Shown in pieces: positions 3,131 through 31,744 of a stretch of DNA of 64,000 nt. The notes beneath the pieces are model-generated. The model did no database searches, had not been told where the DNA came from, and saw only the letters and a list, made by a program, of their open reading frames with translations. A program made the translations under genes and the position numbers. Origin of the DNA: a virus; the IMG/VR virus record IMGVR_UViG_3300005732_000005, positions 1-64,000 of that record. One strand, written 5' to 3'. Positions within the stretch are counted from its first letter, which is position 1, and each line of letters opens with the position of its first letter.

Positions 3131-3394
3131 AAATCTCTATTCACTTAATGAATAATTCCCACCTATAGCAAGTATCTAGCAAGCTACGTGCCAACTTGAT
3201 TTTACTAAAACACACTCCCTCTGAAAGCCTTATAAATAAAGGGCTAGAGACTTACGTCCTCAAAAGCAATTCCTGAGCATATGCAACACTACCCAATACA
3301 CTAGCTCAGGTTAATTAACCTTGCTCATACAGGCTCTCTCAAGGCGTTATATCTATATAAAACACTTTGGCACAGTATGTGCATATGAATAAAC

Positions 3395-3487: not shown

Positions 3488-4547
3488 CATTATCTACTAC
3501 GTAGATGCAAGTAGTTCTCATTTACAAACAGTTATTAACCATAGGTTAAATGATAATTATTCTTATTACACTAGAACACACATAAATCTAAATGATAATC
3601 ATTACTAAATACGAATAGTTATCATTAATAAACTCTAATAATATCAATAATCTAAATGAGAATTGTTTTTATTTGCAATGTGCAAATGAGAAGTGTTATT
3701 GTTTAAGAATTAATCTTATTTAGAAATGTTAGCGTTTGTTAACATAAATAGTAATTATTCTTATTTAGATTACTTTATTAATCTTTTTAATGAGAATGAT
3801 TCGTATTAATTGATAAATTAAAATGTGGTATGTTGTTTGCATGTAATGCAAGAAGGATACCTCTTTGTTGCTATGCAACATATATGCCAAACTACCTTGA
3901 AAGCCTTTATTTATATAGCCATGGCTATATGAGAGTGATTGTTATTTGCAATTGCAAATTAAAGTAGAATGTTATGTTACATAGTAACAAAAGGGGGATA
4001 TTCGTCAACCTTGTTGACAAAGACAGGGTATTGTGAGAAGGGATAATTGGGGAAGGGGATTGCTGTAGTGGGAGTTGTGGGGGAGAGGGGTTTAACAAAC
4101 CACGAACACTAACACGACAACAACACAAGACCATTCACCTACTGTTACATAGTAACAAAAGTAAACACCATCTATTGCGTAGCAATAAAAGTACACTCTC
4201 TGTTAACATCGTTAACAAATATATAACCTTTCAAACAATAATCCTCTCACAAGCAATAATATCTCTGATGTAAATTAATTGTTAATAAAAGGTATGTTCT
4301 CGTTAACGTAGTTAACAAAGTGTAAACCCCCTTTACAAAATACAACTATTCATCATATCTATGATAAGAAGTATTATATTCATCTAACTAATACGACATA
4401 ATATAGAATATGTTAAATATAGATGAGAATGATTCTTGTTTGGAGGGAATACTTATTCAATAGGAATTGTTGTTATTTGAGAGGGATTCTCATCAACTAC
4501 GTTGATAAAAGAGATACTTGTTGAGAGGGGTTCTTATTTGAGGGAGT

Positions 4548-8489: not shown

Positions 8490-8711
8490 CTACCAAATCT
8501 TACTTAGGAATTTATCCCTGATGATATCAAATCCTTCGGGAAAACTGCAAGTACTATCTCCAACTCTTCTGAAATATTCTTGGATAGAAATTTCCTCTTG
8601 TTCCCAAGAATACTCGTAATTGGTTCTATCCCAACCATCAGGGTCAAGGACAATAATTTCTTTGACAATAGATTGCCACTCTTTAGATGTTTTGTTTCCT
8701 GTTAACATCAC
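8490..8711 (-). CDS. hypothetical protein
   Basis: coupled ORF. Confidence 0.7.
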   Translation of the reverse strand: MMLTGNKTSKEWQSIVKEIIVLDPDGWDRTNYEYSWEQEEISIQEYFRRVGDSTCSFPEGFDIIRDKFLSKIW

Positions 8712-9134: not shown

Positions 9135-9661
9135 ACTTTCTCCTTCAATGTTGGAGGTGATTTAAGTTTAACAGTTTCTATAGATCTGTCTATATCTTTT
9201 AACAGTCTTTCTTTGATGGTAATAAACTTCTTATCTATATCTTCTGAAGTCATCTCCTTATCTGATAACAATTGCCCTTCTACTTGATCCAGTATAATTT
9301 TAAAATCTTTAAGGGAATCTTCAACCCCTGATAACCACATCTCCTTTGAACCTGCAGGGCAATATATGTCTGAACTATCTACTACAATAGTTCCATTTCC
9401 TACCTCCCCTATATAAATATCTCCTTTGTCGAACATTGCATTTGCATCCTCCATTAAACAACCCATATAAACACTTTCCCCCTTTTCTGTTTGCTTTTTG
9501 AATAATTCGTTTATATTTTCTGACATCTCTAGGTTGTAAGTGCATATGAAGTTTTTGTCAACCTCACTTACAAAGAAACCAATTCTGTTACTTGGACACT
9601 TCTCCATAAGATTATTGAGTTTTTTAATCCAGCCCGCTTCAGCCCTTGTCAGTTTACTCAT
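9131..9661 (-). CDS. hypothetical protein
   Basis: ORF. Confidence 0.7.
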   Translation of the reverse strand: MSKLTRAEAGWIKKLNNLMEKCPSNRIGFFVSEVDKNFICTYNLEMSENINELFKKQTEKGESVYMGCLMEDANAMFDKGDIYIGEVGNGTIVVDSSDIYCPAGSKEMWLSGVEDSLKDFKIILDQVEGQLLSDKEMTSEDIDKKFITIKERLLKDIDRSIETVKLKSPPTLKEKV

Positions 9662-9686: not shown

Positions 9687-10118
9687 TCATACTATCTTCA
9701 CCACTTCATATCCTAATTCTTTAGCTTCTCTTAAGAAACGATTTTCTTCTGAATACTTGGCAACTTCTTGAGTGATTCTACTTTTCTTTAACACATATTT
9801 GGTGATAGATTCTTCATCTCCGTCAAACCACTTTCTTACAATATCGTAAGGGATAATAATATTTGAGCTAGAGTAAAAACCATCGTAATCATCTTCATAT
9901 TCCAACACAATCTGAACAGAAGTGTTGTTGAATTCTACAAATGTAACTGTCTCACCATAACCTACTCGGAAAGGATTATAATCGTGAAAAGAAGTATTCC
10001 TACTTTCAAGAGTAACACCACTCAGGAAATCACATAACTCTTGAAAAACACCCTCCACTTTTGACAAAGTTTCTTGTGCTGAAAGGTATTCTTGTTTAAG
10101 AGTTTCTATATCTGTCAT
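9687..10118 (-). CDS. hypothetical protein
   Basis: ORF with GGAG RBS. Confidence 0.7.
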   Translation of the reverse strand: MTDIETLKQEYLSAQETLSKVEGVFQELCDFLSGVTLESRNTSFHDYNPFRVGYGETVTFVEFNNTSVQIVLEYEDDYDGFYSSSNIIIPYDIVRKWFDGDEESITKYVLKKSRITQEVAKYSEENRFLREAKELGYEVVKIV

Positions 10119-11636: not shown

Positions 11637-11992
11637 TCATCCTCTCTATATCTTCGTAAATTTCTATCTTGAATTCTACTTAACTTATTTAAATTGTCAA
11701 ACTCTTTTTCTTTCTGACGTAACCTTTCTCGAAGCATTTCATTTTCCAGTAAGAGGTTTGTTTCCTTTTGAGAAGGTGATCTTTTGTTCCAAGCTTCTAT
11801 CACTTTCTTGATTATAATATCACAAGATTCTTTATCTAAGTTATCCGACCAAAATAGTTCAGAAGAAGCTTCACAACCATTACACTCTACTTGAGCATTG
11901 TCTATGCTCCAGCTAATATCCATAGAAGATTCGCAATTTAAGTCTACATCTTCACTCCCACAAAAAGGACATGGTAAAAGTTTTTCCATCAT
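11630..11992 (-). CDS. Lar-family restriction alleviation protein
   Basis: LLPCPFCG...VECNGC..S...AWNKR signature. Confidence 0.75.
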   Translation of the reverse strand: MMEKLLPCPFCGSEDVDLNCESSMDISWSIDNAQVECNGCEASSELFWSDNLDKESCDIIIKKVIEAWNKRSPSQKETNLLLENEMLRERLRQKEKEFDNLNKLSRIQDRNLRRYREDDW

Positions 11993-13140: not shown

Positions 13141-13747
13141 ACCACCTCCTCATAACTTCCCCACAAATAAATACCTTCTGGATTAAAATGTTCTTCCAAT
13201 CCACCTACTCGGATAAATTCCTTTCCTTTAATATAGACACCTTTATTAGAAGGGTAATATTCTCCCTCAACAATTTCTCCCCAAGATACTTTATCTGAAG
13301 GAAGTCCTGTGTAGATACCAGCATCTGTGGAAAGGGTTTTAGTAATTTAATTTTCATAAGTTTCTCCTTTTGACATGTACCATCCGTAAACATAGTTTAC
13401 ATAATAACTTGCCACACATAAAGCTTTATATGCAAAAACATATACATTTTCTGAGTAGAAATCTTGTGCCAAAGAAATTGCTAGACAGATGAATAGTATA
13501 CTGTAAACATATTATTCCCCCTTACCTTTAAGTACATCTACCGCTAAACGTATTAAGATGATAGCTGATATAAATAACACTAAACCTACCACGATATGTA
13601 ACATATTTTCTCCTCAAAAATTAATTTCCACCACTATACCAACCCACATTCACAAAAGCAACCATTATTTTAAAATTAATTCCTCTTGCCAAAGGATAAT
13701 CTTTTTGCTAAAGTTTGTCTGTGTTCAATAACAAGAGGAGATACACA

Positions 13748-25283: not shown

Positions 25284-26120
25284 CTAATCAGTTATCATTT
25301 CAAAACCAATCTTACCAAGATGTTCATAACCTGTCAACTTAAAATATTCTCGTGCATGCCAATCTGGTACATAAATATCTGACATCATATTGATTTTAGA
25401 GTTTACTTCAACAACAGGATTGATGTCAAGCGGTTTACGCTTCAACATTTCATAGACACCTTCCAAATGTGGCTCGTAAATGTGTGCGTTGGTTATATTA
25501 TGTTTCACAACTCCTTGTTCCAAACCTGCAATATGGGAGAGTATCTTATTCTCAATCCATAAACTGAATGCGTTAAAAGGTTTCCCAACCGCATAATCTG
25601 CAGATCTTTGCGTTGCCCTTGTATGTAGCTTCCCGTCTAGAATAGTATAAATTGTTTGGAACAAGCATGGGCGTAGACATCCCTTGTCAAACAACTCTGG
25701 CCTCCAGAAATTCATTATCAGTCCACGGTCATCTTCGTGCATAGCTATCTTATTCAACAATTCTGGAATTTCATGAGGTTCTGTAGCCGCACCATACACT
25801 CGACCCATATCGTCAACACCTTTACAATAAGGTTTATTTTGCCACGAATCTTTGTTGGCATCCTTGAACCAAGTAGGGCTACCTATATCTGCAAACTGTT
25901 GTGCATTACAATAAGCTCTCCAATACCCAACCCTCTCTGCCCAACTGCTTACTGGGAAGCATTGTTTTACTGTTAACAAAGACACATCTTCAGGTTTGTA
26001 GGTGAAATCTAGGAAAGGAACTGTTAAACAATCCACTCCTGTTCGCTGATTCTTAATCCACTTACCTTCATCTAAGATATACTGTAACGCATCTAGATAA
26101 TCTTTTTCATATTTTAACAA
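25284..26120 (-). CDS. thyA: thymidylate synthase
   Basis: RTG, MGRVYG, LRPC, QRSAD...G.PFN, NAHIY..H. Confidence 0.9.
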   Translation of the reverse strand: MLKYEKDYLDALQYILDEGKWIKNQRTGVDCLTVPFLDFTYKPEDVSLLTVKQCFPVSSWAERVGYWRAYCNAQQFADIGSPTWFKDANKDSWQNKPYCKGVDDMGRVYGAATEPHEIPELLNKIAMHEDDRGLIMNFWRPELFDKGCLRPCLFQTIYTILDGKLHTRATQRSADYAVGKPFNAFSLWIENKILSHIAGLEQGVVKHNITNAHIYEPHLEGVYEMLKRKPLDINPVVEVNSKINMMSDIYVPDWHAREYFKLTGYEHLGKIGFEMITD

Positions 26121-26420
26121 CTACATTCTCTCCTCAATAATCCAGTTAATACTTAAGAACTCAAACTCTTTCAAATTATAAAATTCTGGGTCGTATGGGT
26201 TCTTTGTAAGATTTTTCTCTATCATCAAGTCATACCTATTATCCTGACACCATTTCGTCCAGACATCCCAACAATCTATATGGATCACTATCTTTGTAAA
26301 GGTATCTAACTCTACTCGATATGTGTTGTTTCTAAAAGGTAATAACTTATGTGCAATATCTATTGTCTGGTCAACGATGTCAATATAACCTAGACAATCT
26401 TCAAATTTTTCAATCTTCAT
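26121..26420 (-). CDS. hypothetical protein; its RBS overlaps the R'' box of attC1
   Basis: GTTAGGAGAAGAA-ATG on minus strand. Confidence 0.65.
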   Translation of the reverse strand: MKIEKFEDCLGYIDIVDQTIDIAHKLLPFRNNTYRVELDTFTKIVIHIDCWDVWTKWCQDNRYDLMIEKNLTKNPYDPEFYNLKEFEFLSINWIIEERM

Positions 26421-26426
26421 TTCTTC

Positions 26427-26483
26427 TCCTAACAAATTAATTAAAGGGACAAGACAAGCTTGCCCGTTATTGTAAAGTTACAC
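26427..26483 (+). mobile_element. integron attC site 1 (57 bp)
   Basis: TCCTAAC-AAATT-AATTAAAGGGACAAG..CTTGCCCGTTATT-GTAAA-GTTACAC; stem with two extrahelical bases. Confidence 0.75.
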
Positions 26484-26525
26484 CCCAATCCCCTCAACCA
26501 TTCACCCTTTTAAGGAGTAAATTTT

Positions 26526-26792
26526 ATGGAACACAAGATAAACCCTGACGATATAACTAACTTTTATCTAGTAAATGTTGAAACAGGTAAACATTTCGAG
26601 GGTTTCGATAAAGATACTGTAATATCTTCCCCGCTACCACCTAAAACAGGTGAATACTTAAATCAATCAGGTTGTTATTTTGAGGTTGTAGGTATTCTTC
26701 AACACTTTGATCAGAACCTTGTAGAAGTTTTCGCAAAAGGTTTAGGTGATAGCTCGGCTTTTCTAAGATACCTACAAAACAAAGTTCAGTAA
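26526..26792 (+). CDS. cassette-borne hypothetical protein
   Basis: AAGGAG RBS; opposite strand to flanking phage genes. Confidence 0.75.
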   Translation: MEHKINPDDITNFYLVNVETGKHFEGFDKDTVISSPLPPKTGEYLNQSGCYFEVVGILQHFDQNLVEVFAKGLGDSSAFLRYLQNKVQ

Positions 26793-26965
26793 GTCCAAGT
26801 AGGACTTTTTACTGCGTGTCTATATAATTCTTCATAGGCACGTTCATTCACAGTTTCACGGTACTCTGTGAGCAAAGGTACAACCTTATCTAAGATTTCT
26901 TTTTGCTCTAAAGTTTTCTTACCAAGAGCTTTTTGTAAATCTAATAAAATATGATCTAATTGCAT
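26786..26965 (-). CDS. small convergent ORF (59 aa, MQLDHILLDLQKALG...)
   Basis: Hand-translated; AGAGGA RBS; 3' end overlaps 26526-26792 by 7 nt. Confidence 0.55.
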   Translation of the reverse strand: MQLDHILLDLQKALGKKTLEQKEILDKVVPLLTEYRETVNERAYEELYRHAVKSPTWTY

Positions 26966-27066
26966 AATAAATTTTCCTCTAAATAAATTAATAAAAGTGT
27001 AATCTATTGTAATAAGTGTTTGTTTTAACTTGTGGTAAATTGTTCGCTTTAAATGGAGCTTTTGTT

Positions 27067-27453
27067 ATGAAAACCCTTTATAAAATAGACAAACACTTAT
27101 CAGACAAATTACTAAAACATATGTTTAACTCTTATGTTAATCACAGAGGAGAAACAACAGGAAGTCTATCTGACTATTGCTTCAACCCTCTATCTGAAAA
27201 CACAATACCTGAGTTACTTACAACCAATGAAAGTGGTAATTCTGTTAATAAAACCTCTGATTATTTCAGGGACTTTGAAAAACGTGGCTTACTTACTCAA
27301 AACGGAGTTTGTTATTACTTGACTGAAGAAGGTTACAAACAAGGTCTAAAGGTAAGTCAGCCTGTAAAACAATTCTTAAAAACACAGTGGAAATGGTATT
27401 TACCTGTAGTCCTTTCTTTAGTTGCCGCTACCACAGGAATACTACGCTTATGA
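27067..27453 (+). CDS. cassette-borne protein, possible winged helix plus C-terminal TM anchor
   Basis: GGAG RBS; RGLL...YYLTEEG wing-like motif; WKWYLPVVLSLVAA hydrophobic tail. Confidence 0.65.
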   Translation: MKTLYKIDKHLSDKLLKHMFNSYVNHRGETTGSLSDYCFNPLSENTIPELLTTNESGNSVNKTSDYFRDFEKRGLLTQNGVCYYLTEEGYKQGLKVSQPVKQFLKTQWKWYLPVVLSLVAATTGILRL

Positions 27454-27511
27454 TAGTTATTGCACACATCCACCAAGCTATGTAGACATCTTCATCCTCT
27501 TTCTTACTCAA
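27428..27511 (-). CDS. small hydrophobic convergent peptide (27 aa, MSKKEDEDVYIAWWMCAITIISVVFLW)
   Basis: Hand-translated; TTG start with AGGGG RBS; overlaps 3' end of 27067-27453. Confidence 0.35.
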   Translation of the reverse strand: MSKKEDEDVYIAWWMCAITIISVVFLW

Positions 27512-27553
27512 AATATACCCCTATATATAAATTACATAAACAAATATAATGTG

Positions 27554-27611
27554 GTGTAACAAGTGGTTAAACTAGGAATCGCTTCGCTCTCCTGTTAACC
27601 AAGCGTTATAA
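27554..27611 (+). mobile_element. integron attC site 2 (58 bp)
   Basis: GTGTAAC-AAGT-GGTTAAACTAGGA..GCTTCGC..TCCTGTTAACC-AAGC-GTTATAA; two extrahelical bases. Confidence 0.88.
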
Positions 27612-27643
27612 CCTACACTATCAACCCTGAAAGGAGTTTTAGA

Positions 27644-27886
27644 ATGTCCTATTACAAAGAACCTTACCATTTCAAGGCAGGTTTCCATCCAAAATGTCCC
27701 AACTCAGAATGTAAGAGTACTAATATAGATATATCACTTTCCGAACACCTGTACGGTCCTGCTAATGGTAATTATGAAGTAATATACTGTAAAGACTGCC
27801 ATACATTCTTAGGTGCTCATCCTGTAGTAATTCAAAATCTACATCCAGATATTAAAGATGAGGATAAGATCAAACTGGGTGACTAG
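27644..27886 (+). CDS. cassette-borne zinc-ribbon protein
   Basis: AAGGAG RBS; CPxxxC and CxxC pairs. Confidence 0.7.
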   Translation: MSYYKEPYHFKAGFHPKCPNSECKSTNIDISLSEHLYGPANGNYEVIYCKDCHTFLGAHPVVIQNLHPDIKDEDKIKLGD

Positions 27887-28031
27887 GCTGTTTAGTTGCC
27901 GTATTTGCTTTGGCTAGTGCTAATAAAGCTTCAATCCTGATAATTCTCTGGGTTTCTGCTGGTGTGTTTTCTAAACTTCTACAATCATTAGCCAAAGCAG
28001 CAATTGCTGCAAAGATGTCTCTGTTGTTCAT
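27870..28031 (-). CDS. small convergent ORF (53 aa, MNNRDIFAAIAALA...)
   Basis: AGGAG RBS; overlaps 3' end of 27644-27886 by 17 nt. Confidence 0.55.
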   Translation of the reverse strand: MNNRDIFAAIAALANDCRSLENTPAETQRIIRIEALLALAKANTATKQPSHPV

Positions 28032-28061
28032 AATTATTTCTCCTATTTTCAATTTAGGGTG

Positions 28062-28118
28062 TTATAACAAGTTAATTAAGCGGACTTGCTTCGCCTGCCG
28101 CTTATTAAGGCGTTACTT
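28062..28118 (+). mobile_element. integron attC site 3 (57 bp)
   Basis: TTATAAC-AAG-TTAATTAAGCGG..GCTTCGC..CCGCTTATTAA-GGC-GTTACTT; architecture like short aadA-type attC. Confidence 0.88.
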
Positions 28119-28132
28119 TAACAAAACTCGAA

Positions 28133-28387
28133 TCAGTTGTCAACACTTCCAACACTACTTTCTTCAAGCCATTTATCAAAATCGTCGTCTCCAGAGTAAT
28201 CTACTTCTCGATTAACAAGGGTATACATTTCCTGAGAAGCTGCTAACCACATTGCTGCCTCTAGAGCATTATCAAACTCTTCAATGACTTCCTTTGTCTC
28301 AAAGTTGATTAGTGCAGAAGGTTTGTTCTTTCCTACACCAAAATCTACTTCAATAAGGTTATTTTCTTCCACAATATTATCGCTCAA
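28133..28387 (-). CDS. acidic hypothetical protein
   Basis: TTG start after GAGGTG. Confidence 0.55.
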   Translation of the reverse strand: MSDNIVEENNLIEVDFGVGKNKPSALINFETKEVIEEFDNALEAAMWLAASQEMYTLVNREVDYSGDDDFDKWLEESSVGSVDN

Positions 28388-28516
28388 AAGAAACACCTCG
28401 TTTAGTAAGTTCATTAATAATCTTAACTTTCTGACCACCTGTTGCAGAAGGTAATTTCTGAATAAGGTCTTTTGTTGAAAGTTGTGCTACTTTTACTAGG
28501 TTCTTTTGTTTTGCCA

Positions 28517-28705
28517 TTATTGTTTCTCCTCGTTAAAAACCACTTTTCGGGTAGATTGGAATAATGTAGAAAGATTACTACTTGTATGATAGTTATTCAC
28601 ACTACCAGTCCAATGCTTTCCAATATAACCACACCTTGTTAAACGTTCATTTTGTGTATATTCATTTAGCTCTTGTGCTGTTTTACATTGTTTGTATGAT
28701 GTCAT
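28517..28705 (-). CDS. hypothetical protein
   Basis: ORF with GGAGG RBS. Confidence 0.5.
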   Translation of the reverse strand: MTSYKQCKTAQELNEYTQNERLTRCGYIGKHWTGSVNNYHTSSNLSTLFQSTRKVVFNEEKQ

Positions 28706-31064: not shown

Positions 31065-31744
31065 AACAACTCCTTCACATCAACAAATACACTTGGCTTC
31101 AAATATTTACCATTTGGGAAACGTTCATTATGCTCTTTATCGTATTTACTCTTGAAGATATAAACCTTCTCACCAAGCAGTTCACCTTCTTCAAAGTATA
31201 CGTCTGTGTAGCGACCTTTGCTCTCGATATAATCACACTCTGATTCAGGGTCAACTGTTCCTACGACAGGGAACTTTGATTTATTACTGGTATTTACTGC
31301 ATCAAAGTATTTAACAACCTTCTCCACATCGATATCAGAAGCATTTGTTAAATCACAAAGAACATCTACAGCACTTTGGAAATGTCGAACACTGTGTTTT
31401 GTTGATAAGAAATAACTTTGTGCTTCGTGAAGCAAATCATTAAAGTCCATACCCTCAGGGTTCAAGTCGTAATCATATGTGCCATCAAGAAGAGACTTAT
31501 TACCAGCATACATCATTGCACAAGGAATAACTGTGACATGCAGATCAATTAATCCGTCGTATTTCTCTTCTTCATCATTATCCTTGATGGCCAACATACC
31601 TTCACAAAATTCTGAGTATGCGATATTAATCTGGTGCGGAAGTTGTTCATCTGAGTCAGTGGTAAGTCCTACGGCAACATTAATCTCGTCGGAAAGTTCC
31701 CATGTCTCAAGGATTTTTTGTTTAAGGGTGGTTTGTTGTGTCAT
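31061..31744 (-). CDS. MazG-like NTP pyrophosphohydrolase
   Basis: E..E...EE..DGLID.HV, V..SN.SK, GK.LKP motifs. Confidence 0.65.
   Translation of the reverse strand: MTQQTTLKQKILETWELSDEINVAVGLTTDSDEQLPHQINIAYSEFCEGMLAIKDNDEEEKYDGLIDLHVTVIPCAMMYAGNKSLLDGTYDYDLNPEGMDFNDLLHEAQSYFLSTKHSVRHFQSAVDVLCDLTNASDIDVEKVVKYFDAVNTSNKSKFPVVGTVDPESECDYIESKGRYTDVYFEEGELLGEKVYIFKSKYDKEHNERFPNGKYLKPSVFVDVKELL

What the first reader, a model, noticed from the sequence alone, without database searches (positions are those of the whole stretch)
26427..28118. Integron gene-cassette array (three attC sites, no integrase) inside a lytic phage genome
Seen: three 57-58 bp imperfect palindromes at 26427-26483, 27554-27611 and 28062-28118. 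Each runs xxxTAAC...GTTxxxx, with unpaired spacers next to the AAC/GTT triplets and extrahelical bases on the left arm (e.g. GGTTAAACTAGGA vs TCCTGTTAACC). Two have the GCTTCGC centre known from aadA-type attC. Each cassette's first 7 bp exactly complement its own R'' box (GTTACAC/GTGTAAC; GTTATAA/TTATAAC), the hallmark of true circularisable cassettes. The main ORFs point rightwards inside a long leftward block. Established: attC cassettes are moved by IntI integrases; Vibrionaceae carry chromosomal integrons; many cassettes encode anti-phage or toxin functions. Inference: the phage uses host IntI to capture or shuffle cassettes. attC1's R'' has no matching GTTAGGA cassette start nearby and overlaps the RBS of phage gene 26121-26420, so it may be a phage-resident landing pad (empty site would read ...GTAAAG|TTACTTT...). 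The sites are far shorter than roughly 125-bp Vibrio VCR-type repeats.
Basis: partly seen in the sequence, partly recalled or inferred. Interest (0 to 1): 0.95.

Follow-up and report, generated by a model that had tools for sequence, protein, structure and literature searches.

The report
Integron gene cassettes in lytic phage
A 140-kb marine phage with no integrase carries three genuine integron recombination sites (attC) that bound two small gene cassettes, one related to a Vibrio cholerae superintegron cassette; this kind of array was already described in 2023 in a distantly related Pseudoalteromonas phage.

Summary
Covariance models built only from experimentally validated attC sites from elsewhere hit exactly 26427-26483, 27554-27611 and 28062-28118. 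All three hits are full length and on the + strand, and nothing else in the 140-kb genome matches. Each cassette's first 7 bases exactly complement its own R'' box, the mark of integrase crossover at G|TT.

The phage has no tyrosine or serine recombinase, so this is a CALIN (attC cluster lacking an integrase). Its two closest relatives have no attC site and fill the same thyA-proximal slot with other genes.

Two cassette genes (ORF88 and ORF59, a convergent pair) are homologues of a pair inside a cassette of the V. cholerae superintegron. That bacterial cassette also occurs, 99.86% identical, in an ICP1-like lytic phage contig with junctions at G|TT.

The phenomenon is published. Qi et al. 2023 (PMC9892861) reported CALINs in virulent phages, and attC2 and attC3 resemble the two PH101 sites that IntI1 recombined. 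This is therefore a new member of a known kind.

Whether the integrase acted on the phage DNA, or the array arrived as a block, is not shown. The 'landing pad' idea has no support.

The scan has flagged integron-like arrays in other phages before, but those used non-canonical hairpins and Xer-like enzymes.

The parts
26427..26483 (+). attC1 (57 nt): R'' TCCTAAC, R' GTTACAC. It is the weakest of the three. Its R'' overlaps the ribosome-binding site of the leftward ORF99.
   Evidence: Sequence. Model R1 25.3 bits, E 1e-3. Model R2 E 0.012. 71% identical to attC3 over 42 nt.
27554..27611 (+). attC2 (58 nt): R'' GTGTAAC, R' GTTATAA, GCTTCGC loop, two bulged bases on the L'' arm.
   Evidence: Bottom-strand fold z -3.3. 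R1 41.9 bits, E 7e-8. 85% identical over 54 nt to PH101_attC1 of phage H101.
28062..28118 (+). attC3 (57 nt): R'' TTATAAC, R' GTTACTT, GCTTCGC loop.
   Evidence: R1 33.4 bits, E 1e-5. Resembles PH101_attC2.
26478..27605 (+). Cassette 1 (1128 bp, from the TT of the attC1 R' to the G of the attC2 R'). It holds ORF88, ORF59 and ORF128. Its first bases GTTACAC complement its own R'' GTGTAAC.
27606..28112 (+). Cassette 2 (507 bp). It holds ORF80 and ORF53. Its start GTTATAA complements its own R'' TTATAAC.
26526..26792 (+). ORF88, a small beta-rich protein of unknown function. It is 75% identical to an 89-aa protein in a V. cholerae superintegron cassette.
   Evidence: Model pLDDT 84 with no clear fold match. 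No homologue in 50,697 deposited phages.
26786..26965 (-). ORF59, convergent with ORF88 and overlapping its 3' end. It is 42% identical to the 59-aa partner in the V. cholerae cassette, and the C-terminus KSPTWTY is conserved.
26972..26997 (+). Possible decayed left half of an attC1-type site (77% identical to 26421-26446, with AAC changed to AAA). It lies between the ORF88/59 pair and the ORF128 module.
   Evidence: Repeat family D6. Not hit by either model.
27067..27453 (+). ORF128, an orphan with a C-terminal hydrophobic helix. Its only homologue (91%) is on a 1-kb contig with different neighbours on both sides.
27644..27886 (+). ORF80, with four invariant cysteines (CPxxC...CxxC), probably a zinc ribbon. 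It has homologues of 74-82% identity in Vibrio chromosomes.
   Evidence: The structure model was too poor to use. No phage homologue.
27870..28031 (-). ORF53, convergent with ORF80 and overlapping its 3' end. Its start and ribosome-binding site lie just left of attC3.
26121..26420 (-). ORF99, an orphan gene between thyA and attC1. It belongs to the variable slot, and whether it belongs to the array is open.
28133..28517 (-). ORF101 and ORF46, non-conserved genes between attC3 and the conserved ORF67. They form the right part of the variable slot.
25284..26120 (-). thyA (thymidylate synthase), the conserved left border of the variable slot.
   Evidence: 83% aa identity to Pseudoalteromonas phage PH357..
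28517..29199 (-). ORF67 (conserved in both relatives) and endonuclease VII, the conserved right border of the slot.

Best explanation
The three palindromes are genuine integron attC sites, and the DNA between them is two integron gene cassettes. This is a CALIN (cluster of attC sites lacking an integrase) sitting in a hypervariable slot, between thyA and a conserved small gene, of a 140-kb phage that looks virulent.

**Shown**
- The sites have the full attC architecture and match models of validated attC sites.
- Each cassette begins with the complement of its own R'' box. That is what crossover by an integron integrase between the G and TT of R' produces.
- The phage has no recombinase of its own.
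- Cassette genes have bacterial relatives, one pair inside the V. cholerae superintegron.

**Inferred**
- The cassettes were made, and at some point moved, by a bacterial IntI acting on the folded bottom strand.
- Any further gain, loss or shuffling on the phage would need the IntI of an infected host. Chromosomal integrons occur in Vibrio, and IntI genes occur in some Pseudoalteromonas.
- The leftward ORFs are read with the phage's own leftward transcription. The rightward ORFs need their own promoters.

**Not shown**
- Whether the G|TT events happened on phage DNA, or in a bacterial array before a block was copied into the phage.
For: - **Models.** Models built from validated attC sites pick exactly the three sites and nothing else in the genome.
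- **Fold.** The bottom strands fold better than the top strands, with the R box, unpaired spacers and bulges on the L'' arm.
- **Covariation.** Across 10 related sites, 9 of 14 L-stem pairs change on both sides. 87.5% of cells are paired, against 71% in shuffles and 27-53% in slid controls.
- **R'/R'' complementarity.** Cassette-level complementarity is exact for both window cassettes and for 5 of 7 cassettes overall, against a 5% background.
- **Published relatives.** attC2 and attC3 resemble PH101_attC1 and PH101_attC2. IntI1 recombined those two sites into attI1 as efficiently as attC-aadA7 (PMC9892861).
- **No recombinase.** No PF00589 or PF00239 protein is found in the complete genome.
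- **Relatives.** The closest relatives, PH357 and IMGVR 3300037962_000518, have no attC and carry other genes in the slot.
- **Bacterial homologues.** The ORF88/ORF59 pair is 75% and 42% identical to a pair in a cassette flanked by VCR repeats in V. cholerae.
- **Cassette transfer.** That bacterial cassette is 99.86% identical in an ICP1-like phage contig, with junctions at G|TT.
- **No phage homologues.** ORF80 and ORF88 have Vibrio homologues and none among 50,697 deposited phages.
- **ORF128 in another context.** The ORF128 module recurs elsewhere, and homology ends at the GTT of R'.
Against: - I could not run IntegronFinder's own attC model. My models are small (3 and 5 sequences) and their E-values are rough.
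- attC1 is weak: E is about 1e-3 to 1e-2, three stem mismatches, and no canonical minimum-energy fold.
- The variable R-box positions depart from the RYYY/RRRY consensus.
- Cassette 1 holds three ORFs and a possible decayed half-site. In contig L002 the ORF128 module carries a different attC interior and a different left neighbour, which simple G|TT exchange does not explain.
- No recombination was observed. Read-level evidence could not be obtained.
- The host, and whether it has an IntI, are unknown.
Confidence: 0.82

Rival explanations
1. Passive passenger. A fragment of a bacterial cassette array was copied into the phage's variable slot by illegitimate or short-homology recombination. The attC sites and their G|TT signatures were made in the bacterium, and no integrase has ever acted on the phage DNA. 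The identity of the sites is the same as in the best explanation; only the route differs.
For: - The array ends in orphan genes (ORF99, ORF101/46) with no R' or R'' at the slot borders.
- The relatives have no attC that could serve as a docking site.
- In the ICP1-like contig the insert begins with a whole attC, and ICP1 has neither an attC nor a GTT at that point.
- The H101 array lies in a different slot.
Against: - Related attC families occur in at least four unrelated phage backbones, always in the same orientation relative to the phage genes.
- The ORF128 module has different neighbours elsewhere.
- Qi et al. showed that sister sites are fully active with IntI1.
- None of this excludes block capture for this particular phage.
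Confidence: 0.35
2. Phage-specific regulatory cassettes of the PeSL type. The palindromes would be promoter/terminator modules, and genes would be shuffled by homologous recombination between them without any integrase.
For: - The region is a hyperplastic slot of small orphan genes, as PeSL regions are (PMC2839356, PMC4122927).
- In H101, about 90-nt and about 60-nt leaders next to the sites are duplicated.
- Weak terminator-like and promoter-like matches overlap attC1 and attC3.
Against: - There are only three copies in 140 kb, about 60-70% alike.
- Promoter-like matches are not enriched: 8 found against 11.7 in shuffles.
- The sites run antiparallel to the phage genes.
- R'/R'' complementarity per cassette is not expected from homologous exchange.
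- The sites match models made from a plasmid integron site.
- Cassette relatives lie in a bacterial superintegron.
Confidence: 0.06
3. Chance palindromes, ordinary terminators, or a chimeric metagenome assembly.
For: The genome is an IMG/VR record rather than a cultured isolate. AT-rich DNA has many AAC...GTT pairs that fold.
Against: - The three top model hits lie within 1.7 kb on one strand.
- The complementarity statistics argue against chance.
- The array's GC content (34.6%) is like the phage's (36.4%), and phage genes lie on both sides.
- The cultured phage H101 has the same layout.
Confidence: 0.03

Closest known systems
[quoted passage not shown] 2023, PMC9892861; NC_029094)
   Same: - A large, distantly related marine phage: PhoH and DHFR are about 55-63% identical and the protease about 40%.
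- No integrase.
- 57-58-nt attC sites of the same sequence family, with AACAAGT at the left end and AAGCGTTA or AGGCGTTA at the right.
- The same layout: a rightward ORF converging on a leftward ORF, between sites that run antiparallel to the phage genes.
- Its sites were recombined by IntI1.
   Different: - Different slot: between the endolysin and the ribonucleotide reductase genes in H101, and beyond thyA here.
- Different cassette genes.
- Four sites, two of them identical, against three here.
- H101's cassettes were not linked to a bacterial integron in that paper. Here one pair is linked to the V. cholerae superintegron.
Sedentary chromosomal integron (superintegron) of Vibrio cholerae
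   Same: It holds a cassette carrying the homologous ORF89/ORF59 convergent pair, bounded at G|TT, with R'' complementary to the cassette start.
   Different: The bacterial array has IntIA, attIA and about 122-nt VCR sites. The phage has no integrase or attI, and its sites are 57-58 nt. The shared cassette's own attC is about 100 nt and is not a VCR.
Mobile class 1 integron attC sites such as attC-aadA7
   Same: About 60 nt long, with an AAC/GTT core, 3-nt spacers, bulges on the L'' arm, a GCTTCGC loop and the right end AAGCGTTA.
   Different: No resistance gene, no intI1, and AT-rich stems.
PeSL mobile regulatory cassettes of T4-type phages (PMC2839356, PMC4122927)
   Same: Short structured motifs that bound small orphan genes in hyperplastic regions of large lytic phages.
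   Different: PeSLs are many near-identical promoter plus stem-loop units co-oriented with the genes, and they exchange by homology. These are three divergent sites with attC architecture and integrase-type junctions.

Membership tests
attC site (integron cassette recombination site) | Inverse core R'' ending in AAC and core R' beginning with GTT (consensus RYYYAAC / GTTRRRY) | tested here: met
   AAC and GTT are present in all three sites and invariant across 10 family sites. The four degenerate positions depart from RYYY/RRRY in places, for example GTTACAC and GTTACTT.
attC site (integron cassette recombination site) | Imperfect L''/L' inverted repeat with extrahelical bases on the L'' arm and unpaired spacers between the R and L boxes | tested here: met
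   Folds, model alignments and covariation in 9 of 14 L-stem pairs. attC1 has three mismatched pairs.
attC site (integron cassette recombination site) | Bottom strand folds better than the top strand | tested here: inconclusive
   Met for attC2 (-8.9 vs -6.9) and attC3 (-8.0 vs -7.2 kcal/mol). Not met for attC1 (-5.8 vs -6.6).
attC site (integron cassette recombination site) | Detected by an attC covariance model (IntegronFinder attc_4 or HattCI+Infernal) | tested here: met
   The published model was not available. Proxy models R1 (5 validated sites) and R2 (3 sites unrelated to Pseudoalteromonas phages) both rank the three sites first, full length.
attC site (integron cassette recombination site) | Recombined by an integron integrase at G|TT | not testable with these tools
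   Sister sites PH101_attC1 and PH101_attC2 were recombined by IntI1 (PMC9892861). The junction signature is present here.
Integron gene cassette | The cassette's first bases complement its own R'' box, not the R'' of the upstream site | tested here: met
   7 of 7 bases for both cassettes. Same-site comparisons match only 1-2 of the 4 variable positions.
Integron gene cassette | The same cassette, or its genes, found in bacterial integron arrays | tested here: met
   The ORF88/ORF59 pair is homologous to a pair in a VCR-flanked cassette of V. cholerae. ORF80 homologues lie in Vibrio chromosomes but with no attC seen there. ORF128 and ORF53 are unplaced.
Complete integron | intI gene (tyrosine recombinase with the IntI-specific insertion) next to attI and Pc | tested here: not met
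   No PF00589 match anywhere in the complete 140,374-bp genome, while the controls were positive. No serine recombinase either.
CALIN (cluster of attC sites lacking an integrase) | Two or more attC sites close together, with no integron integrase nearby | tested here: met
   Three sites within 1.7 kb on the same strand. No integrase in the genome.
PeSL mobile regulatory cassettes | Many near-identical promoter plus stem-loop motifs, co-oriented with early genes, scattered through hyperplastic regions | tested here: not met
   Only three divergent copies. No promoter enrichment. The sites run antiparallel to the phage genes.

The most novel reading that the evidence does not exclude
Large lytic phages of marine Gammaproteobacteria (this phage, H101, and an ICP1-like vibriophage) keep attC arrays as working docking points. 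During infection the host's own IntI moves cassettes between the host superintegron and the phage. These phages would then sample, and spread, the host's cassette pool. That pool includes conserved convergent two-gene modules such as ORF88/ORF59, which may act in defence or counter-defence.
Probability: 0.3. Interest if true: 0.75.

Novelty: new member of a known kind. Interest (0 to 1): 0.45.

Why it matters
Integron cassettes are a main route by which bacteria store and swap adaptive genes, including anti-phage genes. Their presence in virulent phages means that cassettes can travel in virions, and that phages can draw on the same gene pool.

This window adds a second, independent, well-bounded example in the PH101 group of phages. 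Through ORF88/ORF59 it gives a direct sequence link between a phage cassette and the V. cholerae superintegron.

The nearly identical cassette found in passing in an ICP1-like lytic phage shows that such transfer is recent. It also offers a laboratory system, V. cholerae and its phages, in which dependence on IntIA could be tested.

It does not change the picture already drawn by Qi et al. 2023.

Tried and rejected
**Scans that did not discriminate**
- A regex scan with a perfect-stem rule found only attC2 of the three sites, among 58 hits in all.
- A constrained folding-energy scan of all AAC...GTT pairs was dominated by unrelated hairpins.

**Database searches that found nothing**
- megablast of the region against deposited phages: nothing.
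- Exact-pattern scans of IMG/VR. The attC2 core and the attC1-type pattern gave nothing. The 14-base attC2/H1 left-arm pattern gave 120 hits; the 79 of them that I scanned with the model (L010-L088) held no attC. The attC3/H2 pattern gave H101 itself plus G002 and G003.
- An 18-mer scan of metagenome contigs: 9 hits, none an attC.

**Cassette protein function**
- Pfam and PHROGs on all cassette proteins: no family.
- ORF99 in 1.8 billion representatives: an orphan.
- The ORF88 structure (pLDDT 84) had no PDB match better than E 0.06.
- The ORF80 model was too poor to search with.

- Complex prediction for ORF88 with ORF59 could not be reached three times, so there is no verdict.

**Checked and dismissed**
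- G003's tyrosine recombinase is not an IntI.
- The palindrome at 31309-31353 (E 0.23) lies inside a conserved gene and is taken as chance.
- TTTTAAC at 26112 and GTTAAAA at 28532 are complementary 7-mers near the slot borders. The second is inside the conserved ORF67, so I treated the pair as coincidence.
Full report
**What is in the sequence**

attC1 is at 26427-26483, attC2 at 27554-27611 and attC3 at 28062-28118, all on the + strand.

Each runs in the order 7-nt box ending in AAC, 3-nt spacer, bulged stem, loop, stem, 2-4-nt spacer, and box beginning with GTT. As single-stranded DNA, the bottom strands of attC2 and attC3 fold into a 5-bp R box, unpaired spacers and an L stem with bulges. 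They fold more stably than the top strands. attC1 folds less cleanly. attC1 and attC3 are 71% identical over 42 nt.

Five ORFs with good ribosome-binding sites lie between the sites:
- ORF88 (+), which converges on and overlaps ORF59 (-);
- ORF128 (+);
- ORF80 (+), which converges on and overlaps ORF53 (-).

None matches a Pfam or PHROG family.

**Is it more than chance?**

I could not run IntegronFinder. Instead I built covariance models from attC sites that were experimentally recombined by IntI1 and are printed in the supplement of Qi et al. 2023.

- **Model R1** (attC-aadA7, two Tetrasphaera phage TJE1 sites and two PH101 sites) was run with filters off. It scores the three window sites full length at E = 7e-8, 1e-5 and 1e-3. 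The next hit has E = 0.23.
- **Model R2** was built only from aadA7 and the two TJE1 sites, which are unrelated to this phage group. It still ranks the same three sites first, at E = 0.002, 0.009 and 0.012. The next hit has E = 0.42.
- **The other 76 kb of the genome** has nothing better than E = 0.41.
- **Covariation.** On an alignment of ten family sites, 9 of 14 L-stem pairs show changes on both sides. 87.5% of cells pair, against 71% in shuffles and 27-53% when the partners are slid. That alignment was fitted to the model, which favours the structure somewhat.

**The cassette signature**

Integron integrases cut between the G and TT of R'. A cassette therefore starts with TT plus four bases that complement its own R'' box, not the R'' box of the site upstream.

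This holds exactly for both window cassettes: GTTACAC with GTGTAAC, and GTTATAA with TTATAAC. Within a single site only 1-2 of the 4 variable positions match.

I pooled adjacent sites in this phage, H101, a 47-kb phage (G002) and the V. cholerae/ICP1-like cassette. Five of 7 cassettes are exact, against a 5% background among non-cassette pairings (P about 7e-6).

**Context**

The window is the first 64 kb of a complete 140,374-bp IMG/VR virus record with direct terminal repeats and 36% GC. It encodes no tyrosine recombinase and no serine recombinase.

The nearest named relative is Pseudoalteromonas phage PH357, with ThyA 83% identical. An IMG/VR genome, G001, has ThyA 76% identical. Neither has any attC hit or recombinase in its whole genome.

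The interval between thyA (ending at 26120) and the conserved ORF67 (starting at 28517) holds different genes in each of the three phages. The array therefore sits in a hypervariable slot, together with the orphans ORF99, ORF101 and ORF46. The array's GC content (34.6%) is close to the phage's.

**It is a known kind of thing**

Qi et al. 2023 (PMC9892861) screened 10,705 phage genomes and reported 17 CALINs. [quoted passage not shown] They showed that PH101_attC1 and PH101_attC2 integrate into attI1 with IntI1 as efficiently as attC-aadA7.

Window attC2 is 85% identical over 54 nt to PH101_attC1, and attC3 clearly resembles PH101_attC2.

H101 shares distant homologues with this phage: PhoH and DHFR at about 55-63% identity and the protease at about 40%. 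It has four sites with the same layout of convergent gene pairs, antiparallel to the phage genes. They lie in another slot, between the endolysin and the ribonucleotide reductase genes.

**Link to bacterial integrons**

ORF88 has homologues of 71-83% identity, the named ones from V. cholerae, V. splendidus and V. vulnificus. ORF80 has homologues of 74-82% identity in Vibrio chromosomes. Neither has a homologue in 50,697 deposited phages.

In a V. cholerae contig (L145), the ORF88 homologue comes with a convergent 59-aa partner that is 42% identical to ORF59.
- The pair lies in a 1.46-kb cassette that starts G|TTAACC right after the right end of a VCR.
- The cassette ends in its own attC of about 100 nt, whose R'' is GGTTAAC.
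- It is followed by three full VCRs. The VCR identification is backed by the published VCR-PCR primers.
- The apparent adjacency to the his operon passes through a single N and is probably a scaffold join.

The same cassette, 99.86% identical, lies in contigs of a lytic phage that is 88% identical to ICP1. There it sits after a 67-nt attC, with homology starting and ending at the GTT of the R' boxes. ICP1 itself has neither the attC nor the cassette at that spot.

In an Oceanospirillaceae genome, the ORF88 homologue again follows an attC-like site.

**What remains unclear**

1. **The route into the phage.** The array borders show no R box, and the relatives offer no resident attC. In the ICP1-like case the first attC arrived with the insert. 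Capture of a block from a bacterial array is therefore as good an explanation as integrase action on phage DNA. I put it at about one in three.
3. **Cassette 1.**
   - It holds three ORFs and what looks like a decayed half-site at 26972-26997.
   - On contig L002 the ORF128 module has another left neighbour and an attC whose interior is of the attC1 type, with homology breaking near R'' as well as at R'.
   - Exchanges other than simple G|TT crossover have therefore also taken place.
4. **Function.** ORF88 models as a small beta-rich domain with no clear structural relative. ORF80 looks like a zinc ribbon. The complex prediction could not be run.
5. **Host.** The host is unknown. IntI genes are reported in some Pseudoalteromonas strains (PMC9229058) and are general in Vibrio. 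IntI can also insert cassettes at non-att sites (Loot et al.).

**Rivals**

- **PeSL-type regulatory cassettes**. Copy number, orientation, the lack of promoter enrichment, the junction signature and the bacterial integron homologues all argue against them.
- **Chance or a chimeric assembly.** The statistics above, and the same layout in the cultured phage H101, argue against both.

**Verdict**

This is a new member of a known kind (a CALIN in a virulent phage), with a useful new link to the V. cholerae superintegron.

Earlier notes of this scan describe integron-like arrays in other phages. Those involve non-canonical hairpins and Xer-like recombinases, whereas the sites here are canonical attC sites.

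Noticed in passing
L144:3108-5870 (also L146); L145:3155-4626; L147:5239-5340: Contigs of an ICP1-like lytic V. cholerae phage (88% nt identity to ICP1) carry a 67-nt attC plus a 1.46-kb four-ORF cassette. The cassette is 99.86% identical to one in the V. cholerae superintegron, with junctions at G|TT. ICP1 itself has no attC or cassette there, and no deposited phage holds the cassette.
   Followed up: partly
L144:4592-5832: An IS200/IS605-type element (OrfB/TnpB genes) is inserted inside the roughly 100-nt attC of that phage-borne cassette. The V. cholerae copy of the cassette lacks it.
   Followed up: no
L145:3137: A single N joins the end of the his operon to the right half of a VCR. The apparent position of the cassette next to the his operon is probably a scaffold join, not a real insertion outside the superintegron.
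   Followed up: partly
L009:3312-3398 and 3636-3683 (G002, IMGVR_UViG_3300032212_000024, 47 kb, terminal repeats): Another integrase-less phage has at least two attC sites, one resembling window attC3. Its R'/R'' pairs are exactly complementary, and every cassette ORF runs antiparallel to the attC top strand, with its start beside R''.
   Followed up: partly
G003 (IMGVR_UViG_2923784000_000002): 1352-1450, 3254-3350, 3689-3787, 11802-11895; integrase 13215-13628: A 14-kb provirus has four attC-like sites of about 98 nt and a 355-aa tyrosine integrase that is not an integron integrase (TIGR02249 24.5 bits against a cut-off of 265).
   Followed up: partly
window 26427-28118; L005:7998-10066; L009; L144: In all four phages the attC top strand is antiparallel to the phage's main gene direction. 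The recombinogenic bottom strand is therefore the sense strand of the phage genes, and the leftward cassette ORFs are co-oriented with phage transcription.
   Followed up: no
L005:8056-8140 and 9464-9546; 8553-8607 and 9954-10009: In H101, the roughly 90 nt after sites 1 and 3 and the roughly 55 nt before sites 2 and 4 are near-duplicates. Sites 2 and 4 are identical except in R'. Units with different ORFs thus share both flanks, which suggests homologous exchange as well as site-specific exchange.
   Followed up: no
window 28115-28143 (- strand) and 26469-26497 (- strand): Promoter-like sites (TTGACA-17-TAAAGT with an upstream TG, and TTGAGG-17-TACAAT) overlap the R' sides of attC3 and attC1. 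They point into the leftward ORF53 and ORF99. Such matches are not enriched over shuffles.
   Followed up: no
L154:2399-2472 (Oceanospirillaceae genome): The ORF88 homologue is preceded by an attC-like site whose R boxes (GTGTAAC / GTTATAA) are the same as those of window attC2. The model score is weak (E 0.16).
   Followed up: no
window 31309-31353: A 45-nt AAC...GTT palindrome is the best sub-threshold model hit (E 0.23). It lies inside a gene conserved in the relatives and is probably chance.
   Followed up: partly
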